The position numbers were made by a program, and so were the translations under genes. A stretch of DNA of 38,727 bases from a virus (lineage: Duplodnaviria; Caudoviricetes): positions 1-38,727 of IMG/VR virus record IMGVR_UViG_3300037478_000411, one strand, 5' to 3'. The notes under the pieces are model-generated. The model did no database searches and was not told where the DNA came from. It was given only the letters and a program-made list of their open reading frames with translations. Shown piece after piece: positions 6,353-38,727 of this stretch (positions are counted from its first letter, which is position 1; the number at the start of each line of letters is the position of its first letter).

Positions 6353-7027
6353 GTGGACATTGTCTATGTTGTTGCTGCCGCCCCCATGTCCGGGTCTGCG
6401 ACTGGTGAACTCCGCTATTCGTTGAGGTCGCTGGTCAACCTGCCACATGATCGGGTGATCATTGCCGGTTGGAAACCCGACTGGATTCGAAACGTCACGT
6501 ATGTGTCGACTGTCCAGTCGAAGGGCCGTTGGGAGAACGCGTTTCGCAATTTGAAGGCTGCTCTCCCGCATGTGTCGGACGATTTCGTCCTGATGAACGA
6601 CGACTTTTTCATTATGCGTCCCGTCGATGAGATGCCTGTCTTCCATGGGGTGGCCTGGTCTCCGACCGTGAGAGCGCGGAATACGGAGTATCAGCGGGCG
6701 AAACTGTCCGTCTGGCATATTTGCACGGAGGAGGGGATTGCTGATCCTGTCTCCTATGAGCTGCATGTTCCCCTGCCGATGAACCGGCATCTTCTCGAGC
6801 GGAGTCTGGCCAGGGCGAACGGGTTCAGGGTTGCCGGCTATCAGCGGAGTCTCTACGGGAATTTGAACCGGATTGGAGGCTCCCATATGGACGACGTGAA
6901 GGTGATCTCCAACCGTGCTGACATGGACAAGCCGTTCCTGTCCACCAACGAGGCCAGTTTCAAGGGTGGGAAGGTTGGCGAGCTGATCCGGGACACGTTC
7001 CCTGAACCTTCGCCCTACGAATCATGA
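6353..7027 (+). CDS. Stealth-family-like (hexose-1-phosphate) transferase
   Basis: MDIVYV, ELRYSLRSL, KPDWI, FVLMNDDFF and HVPLPM resemble Stealth conserved regions. Confidence 0.65.
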   Translation: MDIVYVVAAAPMSGSATGELRYSLRSLVNLPHDRVIIAGWKPDWIRNVTYVSTVQSKGRWENAFRNLKAALPHVSDDFVLMNDDFFIMRPVDEMPVFHGVAWSPTVRARNTEYQRAKLSVWHICTEEGIADPVSYELHVPLPMNRHLLERSLARANGFRVAGYQRSLYGNLNRIGGSHMDDVKVISNRADMDKPFLSTNEASFKGGKVGELIRDTFPEPSPYES

Positions 7028-7686
7028 GGGTGGTCGTGTGTGTCCCTTATCGGGGGACCGACGAGTTTCGGACTCGTGCCTGGGAGTATGTGCGGGAATG
7101 GTGGCATCAGTTCGACTGGCCGTTGAGTGTGGCGGAGGGCCCGCCTGGACTGTTTAACCGGTCGGCTGCACGGAATCAGGCTGCCGCCCGGGCTGGCGAC
7201 TGGGATGTGGCCGTGTTTGGTGATGCGGACACGGTTGGCGAACCGGATCTGGTACGTAAGGCGGTCCTATCTGCTTCTGACGGTTGGCTTGCCTACCCGT
7301 TCACAGAGTTTCTGGGACTGTCTAGGGGGGGAACCATCTCGCTGCTGCAGGGTGGTTTGGATCTGGCGGTGACGAAACGTATGTCAGGTTCGCCGGGTGG
7401 GATTCTTGCCGTTCCGCGGGACCTGTTTGACGAGGTTGGCGGATTCGATGAGATGTTCACTGGCTGGGGTTATGAGGATCTGGCCTTCGCGTATGCGGCG
7501 GGAACGTTGGGTGGGGTTCACCGGGAGGATGGGATGATCACTCACCTGTGGCATCCGAACGCCGGTGAGAAGCGGGATGCGATCGCTGGGAAGAGTGGGA
7601 ATCGGAGACGGTCGGAATTGTATCGGGCGGCGAACGGGGATCCGGTGATGATGCGGATTCTCCTCGAAAGCCTGAAAGAACTGTGA
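7024..7686 (+). CDS. GT-A glycosyltransferase (GT2/GT7-like)
   Basis: VCVPYR, FNRSAARN, DxD motif (GDAD), GGFDEMFTGWGYED, HLWH. Confidence 0.88.
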   Translation: MRVVVCVPYRGTDEFRTRAWEYVREWWHQFDWPLSVAEGPPGLFNRSAARNQAAARAGDWDVAVFGDADTVGEPDLVRKAVLSASDGWLAYPFTEFLGLSRGGTISLLQGGLDLAVTKRMSGSPGGILAVPRDLFDEVGGFDEMFTGWGYEDLAFAYAAGTLGGVHREDGMITHLWHPNAGEKRDAIAGKSGNRRRSELYRAANGDPVMMRILLESLKEL

Positions 7687-8540
7687 CCCTGTTCTTCGGC
7701 CAGCAGCATGCGACCACTGGCCCCTGGTTTCACGAACATTACGGCCAGGCCCATTCGATTCCTGTCGGAGACTTCCCGCATACTAGAGCCTTAGCGGGCG
7801 ACTATGGGGTCTACCTGGATTATCTGCGGGTCTCTTGGGACTACTACGGCCGGGAGAACACGGACCGCACCAGGCGCGCCCAGTTGGACCGTCTGCTATC
7901 CGGCGGGCCGGGTCCGGTGAAGACGGTCCGTCGGCCTGACGGGAATCGTCTGATTGTCGACGGGAACCATCGTGCCGCCGTCTCTTATGCGGCTGGTGTT
8001 GAACCGGAGATTGTGGAAGTGTCCACCGCTGACTGGCTGCGGCGGGTGACCACAAACCGGGGGGAACGGTACGGCAGCCAGCCAGGCAAGCCCTACCAGT
8101 CAGTGTTCCACGACGGATACGAGTGGGTGGAAGGGCGACGTCGGGACACGCTGGCCCGTCATGAGACGATCGGAGAGTCTGATGTTTTGGATTTGGGCTG
8201 CAATATTGGCGCTGCCACTCTTCTTGCTGGCGGCCACGGCGTGGATTCTTCTCCGAAGCTGGTCACTTCCGCCTGGCGTCTGGCCGGATTCTTCGCCTCG
8301 CCGGCCACCTTCCAAGTCGCCGATCTGAACGAGATCGTGTTCAACGGTGAGACGGTCTTCTGTTTCGCAGTGGTCGCCCATCTGAAACGGCTAGATGCTC
8401 TCCGGAAAACGCTGGGTGGAGCTCGGGTCGTCTACTTCGAAGAGAACGCGGGGAAACGGCAACTGTCCAAAGTGGTCGACCTGTTCTCCCATGTGGAACG
8501 GCTCGACGGGGAACGTCCCTTATACCGGTGTGTCCCGTGA
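7683..8540 (+). CDS. ParB/Srx-like domain fused to a class I SAM-dependent methyltransferase
   Basis: LIVDGNHRAA in the N-half; VLDLGCNIG and GVD in the C-half. Confidence 0.7.
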   Translation: MTLFFGQQHATTGPWFHEHYGQAHSIPVGDFPHTRALAGDYGVYLDYLRVSWDYYGRENTDRTRRAQLDRLLSGGPGPVKTVRRPDGNRLIVDGNHRAAVSYAAGVEPEIVEVSTADWLRRVTTNRGERYGSQPGKPYQSVFHDGYEWVEGRRRDTLARHETIGESDVLDLGCNIGAATLLAGGHGVDSSPKLVTSAWRLAGFFASPATFQVADLNEIVFNGETVFCFAVVAHLKRLDALRKTLGGARVVYFEENAGKRQLSKVVDLFSHVERLDGERPLYRCVP

Positions 8541-9199
8541 AAGCCTACTGGCATCGGGAGCGCCGCGGTCCGAACTTCGGTGACATGCTCACCCCTTGGC
8601 TGCTTCCCAAATATGGGATTCCGGTCCGATGGGCGCAGGCCGGTGAAGCCGACTTCTTCGGAGCCGGGTCGATAGCAGCCCGTATCCCGGCAGGGTTTTC
8701 CGGCTGGGTGTGGGGTACTGGCAAGCTGAAAGCCGACCAGCAGATCAACCTCACCGCCGCTCGAGTGTTAGCCGTTCGGGGCCCGCTCACCCACGAGGCT
8801 GATCTGTATGCGGATCCTGGACTGTTGGCAGGATTGTATGCGCCGGCTGAGGAGAAACGTTGGCCGGTTGGGGTCATCTCCCACTACATCGAAGACCTGC
8901 CCCATAAGGGGAAGCGGATCAGCATTCTCTCCGCCCCGGAGGAGATCATCCGTGCTGCCGTCCGCTGCGAACGGATCGTCACGAGCTCGCTGCACGCTCT
9001 GATCCTGGCCGACTCGTTGGGCATTCTGAACATGTGGGTCTACTCGTCGAAGGTGATCGGCGAGGGCTTCAAGTTTCGGGATTACGCCGCCTCGTACGGC
9101 CAGACGATTGAACCGGACGTGTGGCGTCTCGCTCCACAAGAACAGGTAGCCGAAAAGCAAGCGGCACTCATCAGTGCCCTAGATAAGGAGAAACTCTAA
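8537..9199 (+). CDS. polysaccharide pyruvyl transferase family protein
   Basis: NFGD, GAGSI, WGTG, AVRGPLT, DPGLL, TSSLHALILADSLGI, FKFRDY; GTGA overlap with the upstream gene. Confidence 0.88.
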   Translation: MKAYWHRERRGPNFGDMLTPWLLPKYGIPVRWAQAGEADFFGAGSIAARIPAGFSGWVWGTGKLKADQQINLTAARVLAVRGPLTHEADLYADPGLLAGLYAPAEEKRWPVGVISHYIEDLPHKGKRISILSAPEEIIRAAVRCERIVTSSLHALILADSLGILNMWVYSSKVIGEGFKFRDYAASYGQTIEPDVWRLAPQEQVAEKQAALISALDKEKL

Positions 9200-26245: not shown

Positions 26246-26472
26246 GCACCACTGAACTGCTGACGTTGATGACTGCTGTTGTGGTGCTGATTACGGCGGT
26301 TGCCACCTGGCGGATCAACCAGCTAGCCAAAGCCGTCCAAGAGGTCCATGTCATCGTCAACTCACGGATGACGGCAGTCCTGGCGCGGGTGGAGCAACTC
26401 ACTGAAGCGCTCGAAACGTCAGATACGGACGTACCCGTAGACCCCGAAGAGAGGAAAACCCATGAGCGTTGA
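26242..26472 (+). CDS. single-TM small protein
   Basis: Hydrophobic N-terminus; VHVIVNSRM. Confidence 0.6.
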   Translation: MSTTELLTLMTAVVVLITAVATWRINQLAKAVQEVHVIVNSRMTAVLARVEQLTEALETSDTDVPVDPEERKTHER

Positions 26473-26536
26473 ACGCGTCCTAGTAATCGTGATCCTGGTC
26501 GTACTGGCCGTCTGGCTGGTACGCACCCTCATTTGA
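26462..26536 (+). CDS. 24-aa hydrophobic peptide
   Basis: GAGGA RBS; MSVERVLVIVILVVLAVWLVRTLI. Confidence 0.55.
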   Translation: MSVERVLVIVILVVLAVWLVRTLI

Positions 26537-26601
26537 CCACGGTTCTAATCCTGATCCTGATCGTCGCCGTCCTATACGGCGTCACCAGAATCATGCGATG
26601 A
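26533..26601 (+). CDS. 22-aa hydrophobic peptide
   Basis: TTGA overlap; MTTVLILILIVAVLYGVTRIMR. Confidence 0.45.
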   Translation: MTTVLILILIVAVLYGVTRIMR

Positions 26602-26690
26602 CAAAGGAAAACCCCCGCCAGTGCGGCACTTTCGCACCGCACGGCGAGGAGGATTACTCCAAGTATCGACATATCTCGATCCTAAGTCAA
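26600..26690 (-). ncRNA. putative ~55-nt sRNA unit (promoter + terminator hairpin)
   Basis: Minus-strand TTGACT-17-GATACT (26690-26662), then a GC hairpin and TTTTCCTTT. Confidence 0.45.
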
Positions 26691-26732
26691 GACAAAGCTA
26701 TCCCCCACGGCCGGGGTGAAGGGAGCAGCAAA

Positions 26733-26972
26733 ATGGGAGACTTCGACGACCTGTACCAGGGACGAGCGTCCAACCGGAGCTGGCTGGCCGACCGTACACC
26801 TGAACAGCAGGACTGGCTCAACGAGCTAGCCGCACATATCCGTGAGGCGGGACGGGAGCCGTCTGTCTCATGGCGAGAGTTGAACCGCAGATTCGACTCC
26901 CGCTGGCCGGGTGAGGCACCAGCCGACGCAACCATTTTCGCCCAGCATGTACGCAGCCTGGTCGCCCAGTGA
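26733..26972 (+). CDS. hypothetical helical protein
   Basis: AAGGGAG RBS before ATG 26733; coupled to the exonuclease. Confidence 0.6.
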   Translation: MGDFDDLYQGRASNRSWLADRTPEQQDWLNELAAHIREAGREPSVSWRELNRRFDSRWPGEAPADATIFAQHVRSLVAQ

Positions 26973-27769
26973 ACGACTTCAACGACCTGTATCCGAAACC
27001 GTTACGACTGCTGTTCTACGACACCGAGAATACGCAGATCGAAATCGGAGGGCGGGTCTGGTCGCTACGGCAAGAGGGCTATCTGCCTCACCATTTCGTC
27101 AAACAGCCGAAGCATCTGATCTGCTGGTCGGCGAAGTTCTCCGACGAAACCGAAGTCCGCTCCCAGGTTCTCACGTCGAAGGAGGCGAAGGCTCACGACG
27201 ACGGACGGATTGCTGACGGGCTCGCCAAGCTGATAGGCAAGGCGGACTATGTGGTCGCCCACAACGGCGACTCGTTCGACATCAAGAATCTGAACACCCG
27301 CCTGTTGGCCAACAAGCTGACACCGTTGGGGAACATCCAGTCGATCGACACTCTGAAAATATCACGCCAGTCGTTCAACCTGGAGTCGAACAAGCTCGAC
27401 TATCTCGCTCAGTTCCTACAGTTCGACGGGAAACTACCCACATCTATGTCCCTGTGGGATCGCTGTTGGGATGGCGAGTCAGTGGCGCTGGCGGAAATGC
27501 GCGCTTACAACGAGTACGACTCGGTGCTGCTGGAACATGTTTTCCACGCCATCTCCCCCTACTCAAAAACCCTTCCGAGACTGGTCGACGCGGCGGAATG
27601 GCGACAAGAGTTGTGTCCATACTGCGGAAGCCAGGAGCGCACCAAGTCGAAGGTGCCGCATCGGACGAAGGTGAACACCTACCCGAAGTATCGGTGTTCC
27701 GGTTGTAAGCGGGAGTATCGGGGCTGGCAGGCGGTCGGCTCTAAGAAACCAGCCAGCGTCGGCCTCTAA
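26969..27769 (+). CDS. RNase H-like/DnaQ (DEDDy) 3'-5' exonuclease with C-terminal zinc ribbon
   Basis: FYDTE, AHNGDSFD, IDTL, NKLDYLA, YNEYD; CPYC...CSGC. Confidence 0.85.
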   Translation: MNDFNDLYPKPLRLLFYDTENTQIEIGGRVWSLRQEGYLPHHFVKQPKHLICWSAKFSDETEVRSQVLTSKEAKAHDDGRIADGLAKLIGKADYVVAHNGDSFDIKNLNTRLLANKLTPLGNIQSIDTLKISRQSFNLESNKLDYLAQFLQFDGKLPTSMSLWDRCWDGESVALAEMRAYNEYDSVLLEHVFHAISPYSKTLPRLVDAAEWRQELCPYCGSQERTKSKVPHRTKVNTYPKYRCSGCKREYRGWQAVGSKKPASVGL

Positions 27770-27773
27770 CAAT

Positions 27774-28115
27774 TCGGTGTCCGCTGCTGCGCACGGCGGT
27801 TACCGACAGCCAGGTCAGTCCGAAAGGTGATGCGCGAGAGCCAGTGCCCCCGTCGTGAGGCGGGGATTACGCCGCCAACCATTTCGATGGGGAAGCACTC
27901 TCGTTGCGCTGACCTGGCGTTCTCTTCCTCGGCTGCCCGGTCCCGCCCCCGGCCTGTCGAGGACCTCCGGAGCAGGGGGCTTCTCTCCCGGCCCCCTGCT
28001 CCACCGCAAAGGTTCGGATGTTCCGTGTTCTTCCGGGGAACGCGACATCCCGTCAGGCAGCCCCTCAACGCGTGGGGGGACGAAGTGGAGTCGGCGCGCT
28101 GCCTTGCCCTCCACA
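27774..28115 (+). ncRNA. unclassified highly structured RNA
   Basis: Nested stems with GAAA, GUGA and UUCG tetraloops; 10-bp closing helix 27809-27818/27909-27918; 12-bp hairpin 27969-28002; no credible CDS. Confidence 0.6.
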
Positions 28116-28119
28116 TTCA

Positions 28120-28180
28120 CTCACGGCATACCTCACGAAGTTGTGAGGTATGCCCAACTTGTGAGGTATTGCCCTGTGAG
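28120..28180. repeat. inverted/direct repeat cluster of ATACCTCAC / GTGAGGTAT
   Basis: GGCATACCTCAC-gaagtt-GTGAGGTATGCC plus a third copy at 28161. Confidence 0.8.
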
Positions 28181-28376
28181 CGCAACGTTCTTGCACCGTC
28201 AGGTCAGTATTGAGACTGCTGCTATTGGGATTGTCTCCACATGGGAGGCGGCGGTGCTTCTCTCCGGTCATGGGCCGACCGTGACCAGCCAGGTTCGACG
28301 TCTGCCGAAACCGTTACGGGTTCTCCTGGTCGCCGGATTGACCGCCTGGATGGTCCAACACTTCGAGGTGCGCTGA
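28176..28376 (+). CDS. small membrane protein
   Basis: Two hydrophobic segments ending in ...WMVQHF; start uncertain. Confidence 0.55.
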   Translation: MSATFLHRQVSIETAAIGIVSTWEAAVLLSGHGPTVTSQVRRLPKPLRVLLVAGLTAWMVQHFEVR

Positions 28377-28522
28377 TGGCCATTCACGCTCCCGTCGCCG
28401 CCGTCATCTGCCCCCGTTGCCCGTCAGACTCTGCAACCCCCTACTTCGTCCAAGACCATTCGGGGCGGCTGGTCTGCACCGTATTGGAATGCATGGTCTG
28501 CGGCTTCCTGCAGCTCGTCTGA
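28376..28522 (+). CDS. small zinc-ribbon protein
   Basis: CPRC...CMVC; TGATG coupling. Confidence 0.55.
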   Translation: MAIHAPVAAVICPRCPSDSATPYFVQDHSGRLVCTVLECMVCGFLQLV

Positions 28523-29402: not shown

Positions 29403-30131
29403 ATGGGAGACGAACAGCAGCAGGTCAGTCCCGCCGAACAGGCGGCGAACGCGGCACGGGCCCGTGCTGAAGCCGCCAAGTTTCTTGCCGAAGCCCGCAA
29501 GGAGGATGCGCTCGCCCGGAGTGCGGAAGCATCAGCCGACCAGGCTGAGTTGAAGGCGACCGTCGCCGGCGAGGAGGATGCTGCCCGTCGGGCATCCGAC
29601 GAACATAACCATGTGTACCGGTTCGACGGAGAAGTCGGAGCCACCTCGGTTGGCAAGTGTATTAGCAAGCTGACCGAATGGCATCGGCTCGACCCCGACT
29701 GTCCCATCGAAGTCATCTTCTCAAGTCCGGGCGGGAGTATTTTTGATGGTATGGAGCTTTTCGACTTTATCGTCGAGCTGGGTGAGAACGGTCATGAGGT
29801 TACGACCGGTGGGGCGGGCATGGCCGCCTCAATGGCGGGGATTCTCGTCCAGGCCGGTACGAAACGGTTCCTCACCAAAGAATGCTGGCTGCTCATCCAC
29901 CGGGCCGCGTTCGGTGTGGTGGGTCAGACCTTCGAGATTGAGGATCGGGTGAAGCTGATCCAGCGGATCGAGAAGCGGATCATCGACATTTTCGTCTCCC
30001 GGTCGAATGGGAAACTGTCAGCGTCGAAGATCAAACGGAATTGGGAGCGCCGCGACTGGTGGCTGTCATCCGACGACTGTCTGACGTTAGGGCTGATCGA
30101 CGAGGTGCGCGGACAGATTCCCGCCGTCTGA
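29403..30131 (+). CDS. clpP: ClpP-like serine protease with N-terminal Ala-rich helical extension
   Basis: SSPGGSIFDG, AASMAG (Ser), LIH (His), RRDWWL (Asp), GLIDEV. Confidence 0.85.
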   Translation: MGDEQQQVSPAEQAANAARARAEAAKFLAEARKEDALARSAEASADQAELKATVAGEEDAARRASDEHNHVYRFDGEVGATSVGKCISKLTEWHRLDPDCPIEVIFSSPGGSIFDGMELFDFIVELGENGHEVTTGGAGMAASMAGILVQAGTKRFLTKECWLLIHRAAFGVVGQTFEIEDRVKLIQRIEKRIIDIFVSRSNGKLSASKIKRNWERRDWWLSSDDCLTLGLIDEVRGQIPAV

Positions 30132-30218: not shown

Positions 30219-30260
30219 TGACATTCCCGACAACATGTAGATAATGGACAGCATGGGAGA
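30216..30260 (+). promoter_or_regulatory. duplicated promoter, copy 1
   Basis: TTGACA-16-GATAAT with TGTTG...CAACA inverted repeat; near-identical to 31088-31132. Confidence 0.7.
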
Positions 30261-30628: not shown

Positions 30629-30862
30629 GTTACAAATCAGGTTACAGGGACCATGACCGGATACCTCATAGATGCGGGGTAGCTCACGAAATCGTGAGGT
30701 ATCTATTAGGCTCCGCGGGTAGGACTCGAACCTACAACCAATGGATTAACAGTCCAACGGTCATACACGACAACAGATATCACCAGCTATCACATATGGC
30801 AGGTGGGAGACGACAACAGATATCAGGAGTGATCAAATGAGTACGTTACAAACGGCGTTACA
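30629..30862. repeat. attP accessory repeats (arm-type and Xis-like sites)
   Basis: GTTACA pairs with 12-bp period at 30629/30641 and 30845/30857; ACGACAACAGATATCA at 30767 and 30810. Confidence 0.7.
30709..30756 (-). mobile_element. attP core: 3' half of tRNA-Asn(GTT)
   Basis: Minus strand TGGACTGTTAATCCATTGGTTGTAGGTTCGAGTCCTACCCGCGGAGCC = anticodon arm, T arm and acceptor 3' strand; no 5' half. Confidence 0.88.
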
Positions 30863-31087: not shown

Positions 31088-31132
31088 TGTTGACATTCCC
31101 GGCAACATGTAGATAATGGACAGTATGGGAGA
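31088..31132 (+). promoter_or_regulatory. duplicated promoter, copy 2
   Basis: TTGACA-16-GATAAT; two substitutions versus copy 1. Confidence 0.7.
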
Positions 31133-38527: not shown

Positions 38528-38727
38528 ACCCGTATCGGATGACGATCGGACCAGCCCGGAAATGCACAGCCTGCGGAGCGATATTCCCCAAATGAAGGCG
38601 CACATTGAACCTCTCCGAAACTCTACGACGGCTACCAGACCACTATGAGGTCATCCTCAAGCCGAAAGGCGGCACCGTCGAATATGCGGACACTGTCGCC
38701 AACTGGCTCGCCGACGACGGGAAACTT

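What the first reader, a model, noticed from the sequence alone, without database searches (positions are those of the whole stretch)
27774..28115. Large unclassified structured RNA immediately downstream of a DEDD exonuclease
Seen: ~340 nt with no credible gene in an otherwise gene-dense genome, folding into consecutive domains. (1) Hairpin 27774-27806. (2) A multibranch domain closed by GCCAGGTCAG/CTGACCTGGC (27809-27918), holding CC-GAAA-GG, CGAGAG/CTCTCG, CCCCGTC-GTGA-GGCGGGG and CCAT-TTCG-ATGG. (3) Hairpin CCTCGGC/GTCGAGG. (4) A perfect 12-bp hairpin 27969-28002. (5) Hairpin 28016-28050. (6) Crossing helices AGGCAGC/GCTGCCT and GTGGAG/CTCCAC, a possible pseudoknot. GNRA and UUCG loops and G-U pairs favour a + strand RNA. 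I cannot match it to a known class. Inference: a new phage ncRNA or set of ncRNAs, possibly matured by or acting with the adjacent exonuclease.
Basis: partly seen in the sequence, partly recalled or inferred. Interest (0 to 1): 0.8.

Follow-up and report, generated by a model that had tools for sequence, protein, structure and literature searches.

The report
Phage C-rich RNA with swappable cassettes
The 340-base stretch behind this actinobacterial phage's exonuclease gene is a patchwork: an 88-base twin-hairpin element with cytosine-rich loops, kept in related phages, likely acts as a small RNA that pairs with G-rich ribosome-binding sites, while the ornate pieces on either side were found only in this phage and relatives carry different inserts there.

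Summary
The helices exist at the stated coordinates, the + strand folds far better than shuffles (z -4.5 against -0.8), no Rfam family matches and the overlapping ORFs look non-coding. It is not one conserved 340-nt RNA. It splits into independently folding modules: A (27774-27918), B (27920-28007), C (28008-28125), plus a DNA-type palindrome D. Of 11 related phage loci, 4 carry B in the same slot; none carries A or C. Relatives instead hold a gene, nothing, or other structured inserts (one is tRNA-shaped). B keeps two hairpins, an invariant UCCCGC loop and anti-Shine-Dalgarno-like linkers while its stems change. It works like 6C/sX13 small RNAs but is not a member of either family. Its first loop matches the ribosome-binding region of the small gene heading the exonuclease unit in all five carriers (weak, post hoc evidence). 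A is probably a real but single-instance structured RNA; the pseudoknot in C is weak. Maturation by the exonuclease is unsupported: it resembles PolB proofreading domains, and B is missing from 7 of 11 close and all 197 distant exonuclease loci. No transcript data were available.

The parts
26709..26725 (+). G-rich stretch (GGCCGGGG, 26709-26716) and Shine-Dalgarno of the small gene; candidate target of module B loop 1
   Evidence: ranks 8/66 loop only, 1/66 loop plus arm; local hairpin; weak lineage preference; inference
26733..26972 (+). 79-aa gene of unknown function that overlaps the exonuclease start; homologs precede the exonuclease in the clade
   Evidence: no PHROG hit; no atlas hit
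26969..27769 (+). DEDDy-type exonuclease (Pfam RNase_H_2, PHROG 403) with C-terminal four-cysteine zinc ribbon; D18, E20, D104, Y180, D184 invariant
27774..27806 (+). Module A, first hairpin
   Evidence: z -2.46; pairing 0.62-0.99; found in no relative
27809..27918 (+). Module A, multibranch domain closed by a 10-bp helix, four GNRA/UUCG loops possible; found only in this phage
   Evidence: z -4.75; tetraloop excess 7/2000; no homolog
27920..28007 (+). Module B, conserved twin hairpin with C-rich loops (loop 1 27941-27948, linker ACCUCC 27963-27968, loop 2 27982-27989)
   Evidence: z -4.87; identical 85/85 in L108; homologs in L109, L296, L297; variant contig in run X2
28008..28125 (+). Module C, two hairpins and a possible pseudoknot; found only in this phage (replaced by CC in L108 and in an X2 contig)
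   Evidence: z -0.5
28126..28170 (.). Module D, 11-6-11 inverted repeat of GTGAGGTAT plus a third half-site; probably a protein-binding DNA site, not part of the RNA
   Evidence: same motif at 30661-30702 beside attP and in mobile regions of host-lineage genomes L241, L242
28176..28376 (+). 66-aa gene that follows the slot; homologs follow B in L109 (start only), L296, L297 and the X2 contig
   Evidence: atlas lead 0.89 to viral hypothetical proteins

Best explanation
The stretch is a non-coding patchwork behind the exonuclease gene whose conserved core is an 88-base twin hairpin with cytosine-rich loops that likely acts as a small RNA pairing with G-rich ribosome-binding sites, most plausibly that of the small gene heading its own exonuclease unit, while the flanking structured pieces are lineage-specific inserts that are likely RNAs of their own. 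Shown: the sequence, the independent predicted folds, the conservation of B in the same slot in five phage records, and the absence of A and C from the relatives examined. Inferred: transcription by read-through from the exonuclease gene (A starts 4 nt after the stop, L297's B 5 nt after it, and no + strand promoter was found); C-rich loops acting as chaperone-free seeds, as shown for 6C and sX13; damping of translation of the small gene and the coupled exonuclease, either in trans or by 3'-end fold-back; the strong second hairpin also protecting the 3' end. A and C ride on the same transcript as swappable accessory domains and do not need the exonuclease for maturation.
For: B is in the same slot and strand in L108, L109, L296 and L297. 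A model trained on the window sequence alone ranks L297 (30.4 bits, E 1.4e-4) and L296 (28.3 bits, E 3.6e-4) first in 30.7 kb and L109 first in 83.8 kb (21.8 bits, E 0.018). The L296 and L297 copies fold into the same two hairpins with z -7.2 and -5.3, and the + strand is the stronger. UCCCGC in loop 1 is invariant while stems differ. On the model-fitted alignment 10 of 26 pairs have a both-side change (1 of 500 shuffles). Loops and linker are predicted open in context. The linker ACCUCC equals part of the 16S 3' tail of two candidate hosts. B is 100% identical in L108 where the exonuclease region is 73% identical. Loop 1 pairs with the RBS region of the upstream small gene with rank 8/66, 5/62, 3/82, 6/68 and 3/15 among predicted starts. 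Inserts in the slot are structured in other phages too: z -3.4 (L109), -4.4 (L296), -3.8 (L030). Precedent: PMC6486639 and PMC3771888.
Against: No transcript or target has been observed. The five carriers are about two lineages. On a sequence-only alignment just 2 of 20 pairs covary and hairpin 2 does not beat shuffles (121 of 500). The target was picked post hoc, whole-B duplex ranks are poor in three phages (53/82, 67/68, 15/15), and the preference of each loop for its own target is only 1-3 kcal/mol. A model of similar strength gave a chance hit at E 0.016, so the L109 E-value alone is not decisive. 100% identity with L108 may reflect recent recombination rather than selection. Seven of 11 close loci lack B (two of them end within 250 nt of the stop). 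A and C have no homolog, so their folds are untested by covariation.
Confidence: 0.5

Rival explanations
1. B is only a tandem, U-less intrinsic terminator or 3' stability element ending the late/exonuclease transcript, and A and C are structured passengers without a function of their own.
For: B lies at the 3' side of the gene in every carrier and directly after the stop in L297. L109's copy ends in CCCCCUUUU. The second hairpin is 12-15 bp. PMC6486639 mentions termination as a hypothesis for C-rich stem-loops (passage).
Against: Loop 1 and the linkers are kept while stems are replaced, which a terminator does not need. No U tract follows B in the window, and the scan found no + strand terminator. 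Module A has a tetraloop excess.
Confidence: 0.22
2. The slot is an array of swappable decoy RNAs (tRNA-like and other ornate folds) that titrate host RNA-binding proteins or anti-phage nucleases, with B as the constant handle or 3' cap of the array.
For: Different structured inserts occupy the same slot in the window, L109, L296 and L028/L030. L296:5316-5406 can form a cloverleaf with tRNA geometry only 3.9 kcal/mol above the minimum. Rapid turnover is typical of conflict loci (established knowledge).
Against: No insert matches Rfam, ARAGORN or host-lineage DNA. No partner protein was identified. L108 has a minus-strand ORF there instead, and L297 has nothing.
Confidence: 0.13
3. One integrated ~340-nt RNA is matured by, or works as a cofactor of, the adjacent DEDD exonuclease.
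For: The region starts 4 nt after the stop, is non-coding throughout and folds well on +. All B carriers have the exonuclease just upstream.
Against: A and C are absent from all 11 relatives; modules barely pair with each other. B is missing from 7 of 11 close and 197 of 197 distant loci. The protein's best fold matches are PolB proofreading domains, not RNase T/D.
Confidence: 0.07
4. Module C is a catalytic or nuclease-blocking pseudoknot (HDV-like ribozyme or xrRNA-like three-way junction) that cuts or protects the transcript.
For: A three-way junction with a loop-to-downstream 6-bp pseudoknot can be drawn; 29 of 1000 shuffles give such crossing helices.
Against: No ribozyme or xrRNA family scores at E up to 10. 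By eye there is no room for the P3/L3, P1.1 and P4 of an HDV fold (recalled definition). The 7-bp helix has probability 0 in the nested ensemble. There is no homolog.
Confidence: 0.05
5. The folding is a by-product of GC-rich DNA with inverted repeats at a recombination hot spot, and nothing functions as RNA.
For: Coding windows of this genome also reach z -5 to -7. C is at chance level. D looks like a DNA site.
Against: Strand asymmetry in the window and in homologs; G-U pairs on +; conserved loops across diverged phages.
Confidence: 0.08

Closest known systems
6C sRNA of Actinobacteria (Rfam RF01066; B11; PMC6486639)
   Same: Two hairpins with exposed C-rich loops in a high-GC actinobacterial setting; proposed chaperone-free pairing with G-rich RBS regions.
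   Different: No Rfam score at E up to 10; loops are UCCCGCCC and UCUCUCCC, not six C in a row; phage-borne, behind a gene, flanked by variable structured inserts; function untested.
sX13 of Xanthomonadaceae (RF02232; PMC3771888) and ar7 (RF02342)
   Same: Stable stems with apical C-rich loops; best weak Rfam hits over B (24.1 and 15.2 bits); sX13 also lies next to a DNA polymerase gene.
   Different: Scores are far below the gathering cut-offs (50 and 60); two hairpins, not three; other phylum; no sequence homology shown.
Large ornate phage-associated RNAs (GOLLD, ROOL, OLE, raiA; PMC12286853, search listing only)
   Same: Multibranch fold with GNRA/UUCG loops in module A; non-coding; phage context.
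   Different: No Rfam hit; A is about 145 nt, single-instance, with no covariation and no link to its neighbours.
hok/sok-type 3' fold-back inhibition (recalled, no call)
   Same: A 3' element of an mRNA could pair with the translation start region of its own first gene.
   Different: No antisense gene or toxin was identified; the pairing would be only 8-12 bp over about 1.2 kb; untested.

Membership tests
6C sRNA (RF01066) | Score at or above the family's gathering threshold (47 bits) | tested here: not met
   No hit at gathering or at E up to 10
6C sRNA (RF01066) | Six conserved cytosines in the stem-loops (PMC6486639 passage) | tested here: not met
   The longest C run is 5 and reaches into the stem; loops UCCCGCCC and UCUCUCCC
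6C sRNA (RF01066) | Two stem-loops with single-stranded C-rich loops | tested here: met
   (predicted, four distinct sequences)
6C sRNA (RF01066) | Repression of targets through loop pairing with a G-rich RBS | not testable with these tools
   Only in-silico complementarity
sX13 (RF02232) | Gathering score 50 bits; three stems with C-rich loops | tested here: not met
   24.1 bits, E 0.025; two conserved stems
Rfam large ncRNAs, riboswitches, ribozymes, xrRNA, tmRNA, SRP, RNase P, 6S/Ms1 | Covariance-model match | tested here: not met
   no match; four weak unrelated hits only
k-turn / k-junction in module A | Tandem G-A pairs after a 3-nt bulge; in k-junctions the extra helix is on the non-bulged strand (PMC10573300, abstract start) | tested here: not met
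   GUGAUG (27827-27832) and CUGA (27909-27912) could give the G-A pairs, but the extra CC-GAAA-GG helix is on the bulged strand and CUGA pairs Watson-Crick in P1 at 0.84-1.0
RNA-maturing DEDD exonucleases (RNase T, RNase D, Orn) | Closest structural or family match is an RNase | tested here: not met
   All listed Foldseek matches are family-B DNA polymerases; PHROG 403 'DNA polymerase exonuclease subunit'; substrate not tested
Protein-coding gene | Conserved ORF with coding bias | tested here: not met
   ORFs are broken by the module swaps in relatives

The most novel reading that the evidence does not exclude
These phages keep an RNA cassette slot: behind a DEDDy exonuclease each lineage loads different ornate RNAs (a four-tetraloop multibranch domain here, a tRNA mimic in L296, a 440-nt RNA in L030) in front of a constant C-rich module that pairs with the start of its own operon. 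The slot would be an RNA counterpart of moron genes, delivering decoys against host RNA-binding or anti-phage proteins while gating exonuclease translation.
Probability: 0.13. Interest if true: 0.78.

Novelty: new variant of a known kind. Interest (0 to 1): 0.45.

Why it matters
If B works as proposed, it adds an uncatalogued phage family to the C-rich-loop small RNAs of Actinobacteria and gives one testable target. The more unusual point is the slot itself: related phages exchange whole structured RNA domains at one position, which suggests that non-coding RNA can be a fast-turnover accessory cargo in temperate phages. It also warns that a 'large ornate RNA' read from one genome can be a mosaic. 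Without transcripts or homologs for A and C, the large-RNA claim stays open and the exonuclease partnership is unlikely.

Tried and rejected
Rfam at gathering and at E up to 10 and ARAGORN: no family for any module. blastn of the region against 50,697 phage records gave 14 short chance-level hits and against plasmids none. A module-A pattern in viral contigs gave 1 hit, inside a coding region. A module-B pattern gave 4 hits: L108, L109 and 2 in coding regions. A module-D pattern gave 24 hits, only L108's being a relative. Host-lineage genomes: DNA search of 151 gave only short hits, 2 of them to D; model R1 in 150 genomes 0 hits; model R3 in 141 genomes 0 hits; a B pattern in 401 genomes gave 22 matches with control matches of the same order, and 15 loci checked with R1 reached at most 18.4 bits; the exonuclease profile in 401 genomes gave 1 distant hit without the RNA. 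These are samples of incomplete genomes: not found is not absent. Clp-protease-linked loci (6) added no RNA homolog. 6C was not found in two candidate hosts. No RNA holder listed among sequencing runs. No match of A, B or C to 16S loci. No + strand sigma-70 promoter at 26300-27000 or 27500-28500. No PDB sequence match for the exonuclease profile. Resemblances to SRP, twister, HDV-like, xrRNA, guanidine-III, YrlA and cobalamin motifs were considered by eye from recall and dropped, because Rfam gave no score and key elements are missing. L034 was dropped from the clade count because it ends inside the gene. The metagenome scan read only 14 of 64 parts and the viral profile scan 27 of 64, so more relatives probably exist. 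Literature searches found no description of this element. No supplements were consulted.

Full report
Setting. The window is a 38.7-kb linear virus record of a temperate siphovirus: terminase, portal, capsid, tail, amidase, integrase, repressor-like and WhiB genes. A tRNA-like piece at 30711-30777 matches 2 of 401 genomes of the phylum drawn around G003 over 42 bases without mismatch. I read it as attP and the host as an actinobacterium (inference; the phylum comes from the record title of L189). The finding lies between a DEDDy exonuclease (26969-27769) and a 66-aa gene (28176).

Observation. The + strand folds at z -4.49 and the - strand at -0.81. The four overlapping ORFs have shadow-frame codon scores, no PHROG hit and, for the 116-aa one tested, no homolog. 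Rfam and ARAGORN give nothing; the best weak hit is sX13 at 24.1 bits against a cut-off of 50. Details are weaker than stated. The GTGA and TTCG hairpins are disfavoured by 8.5 kcal/mol in the energy model, although four tetraloop-capped mini-stems in module A exceed shuffles (7 of 2000). The last 118 nt fold no better than chance (z -0.5), and the pseudoknot appears in 29 of 1000 shuffles. Some coding windows of this genome also reach z -5 to -7.

It is a mosaic. I collected 11 loci with a close exonuclease and downstream DNA (L028-L033, L108, L109, L232, L296, L297; L034 dropped, it ends in the gene). L108 shares 27923-28007 at 85 of 85 bases and 28126-28172 at 96%. It has a minus-strand ORF in place of 27770-27922 and only CC in place of 28008-28125. 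A contig of an independent run (X2) shows the same 28007-to-28126 joint, four differences in the shared part and a third kind of upstream DNA. Other contigs in X1 and X2 also diverge at the exonuclease stop. The region therefore splits into A (27774-27918), B (27920-28007), C (28008-28125) and D (28126-28170), which barely pair with each other in the ensemble. A and C were found in 0 of 11 relatives.

Module B is the conserved element. It is in 4 of 11 relatives, always on the + strand between the exonuclease and the next genes; in L297 it starts 5 nt after the stop. A model trained on the window alone ranks the L297 and L296 copies first in 30.7 kb (E 1.4e-4, 3.6e-4) and the L109 copy first in 83.8 kb (E 0.018; a chance hit of similar E-value occurred). 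The L296 and L297 copies fold into the same two hairpins (z -7.2, -5.3), as does the L109 copy (centroid). Kept are a 5' CUUCC, loop 1 UCCCGC, a linker ACCUC/AUCUC, a pyrimidine-rich loop 2 and a C-rich tail. Covariation is alignment-dependent: 10 of 26 pairs on the model-fitted alignment, 2 of 20 on a sequence-only one, and not significant for hairpin 2. The five records are about two lineages. B was not found in 197 distant exonuclease loci, many of them redundant and low in GC, nor in the host-lineage genomes sampled. L028 and L030 lack B but carry another structured RNA in the slot whose loops also show CCUCC and CCCGCU.

How it most likely works. C-rich loops on stable stems are the seeds of 6C RNA, which binds G-rich RBS regions without a chaperone (PMC6486639; abstract and passages), and of sX13, which needs C-rich loops and G-rich target motifs and lies beside polA (PMC3771888; abstract and section 23). 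B's loops and linker are predicted open, and the linker equals part of the candidate hosts' 16S tail. In all five carriers loop 1 pairs with the stretch at or just before the SD of the small gene that heads the exonuclease unit, ranking 8/66, 5/62, 3/82, 6/68 and 3/15 among predicted starts. Target and loop differ between the two lineages, and each loop prefers its own target by 1-3 kcal/mol. This is post hoc and weak, and whole-B duplexes rank poorly in three phages. I give 0.5 to B as a C-rich seed RNA made by read-through, with this operon as best target, and A and C as accessory inserts. A plain terminator (0.22), a decoy array (0.13), an artefact (0.08), the integrated exonuclease partner (0.07) and a ribozyme or xrRNA in C (0.05) are the rivals.

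The exonuclease. The catalytic residues are invariant in 67 close homologs. The model is confident (pLDDT 87) and its listed matches are all family-B polymerase structures (TM about 0.5). Five of the 11 relatives go from the stop into another gene directly or within 85 nt, with no such RNA. Nothing supports RNA maturation by this enzyme; its substrate is untested.

Modules A, C, D. A is the best candidate for a real novel fold (z -4.75, 10-bp closing helix, tetraloop excess) but has one instance only. Other phages put other structured DNA in the same place (z -3.4 for L109, -4.4 for L296, -3.8 for L030, where the minus strand scores -4.6; gene-filled controls +1.2 to -2.1 on +), including a tRNA-shaped domain in L296 that neither Rfam nor ARAGORN calls. 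D is an 11-6-11 palindrome repeated beside attP and in mobile regions of two host-lineage genomes (one, L242, lies in unpublished genome G454). It is most likely a DNA-binding site.

Novelty. B is not a member of 6C or sX13 but likely works like them. Notes from this scan describe similar C-rich-loop RNAs in other actinobacterial phages (unchecked, not independent support), so the kind is recurrent. The variable RNA slot around B is the new aspect. Nine literature searches found no account of this element; PMC10573300 and PMC12286853 were seen as search listings only. Verdict: real non-coding structured region, mosaic, new variant of a known kind, interest 0.45.

Noticed in passing
L030:3950-4390 (5' part also L028:921-1052): A different ~440-nt structured non-coding region behind a close exonuclease, with UUCG/GNRA loops, long-range helices and a terminal hairpin plus U tract; z -4.5 on +, no Rfam hit. 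A better candidate for a large ornate RNA than the window's mosaic.
   Followed up: partly
L296:5316-5406: tRNA-shaped cloverleaf (7-bp acceptor, D arm, GAU-bearing loop, 5-nt T loop) closed by an extra 8-bp stem; 3.9 kcal/mol above the minimum; not called by Rfam or ARAGORN.
   Followed up: partly
L296:5695-5810: About four tandem 31-bp repeats with an internal palindrome directly after module B, where the window has palindrome D.
   Followed up: no
window 28126-28170 and 30661-30702; L241, L242: TACCTCAC-N6-GTGAGGTA palindromes beside the RNA slot, beside attP, and in mobile regions of two host-lineage genomes (L242 is from unpublished G454); operator or recombinase site.
   Followed up: partly
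window 30713-30754: attP-like core: 42 bases identical to the 3' part of a tRNA-Asn gene in G050 and G020; it lies about 0.9 kb from the integrase, with small genes between.
   Followed up: partly
window 30219-30245 and 31090-31117: Two near-identical strong promoter-like repeats (TTGACA...TAGATAAT) followed by the same leader, each heading small genes on either side of attP.
   Followed up: no
window 6353-9199: Cluster of glycan-related genes (Stealth-like, glycosyltransferase, pyruvyl transferase) between capsid and tail genes, suggesting virion glycosylation.
   Followed up: no
L109:4780-4830: Hairpin whose loop (AACCUU) is complementary to AAGGUU just downstream: a possible H-type pseudoknot directly after the exonuclease stop.
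   Followed up: no
window 38670-38727: The last 58 bases equal the first 58 bases of record G001 (reversed), although the two phages differ over most structural genes.
   Followed up: no
window 29403-30131: Stand-alone ClpP-like protease gene among small late genes; homologs also lie near exonuclease genes in L266 and L017.
   Followed up: no
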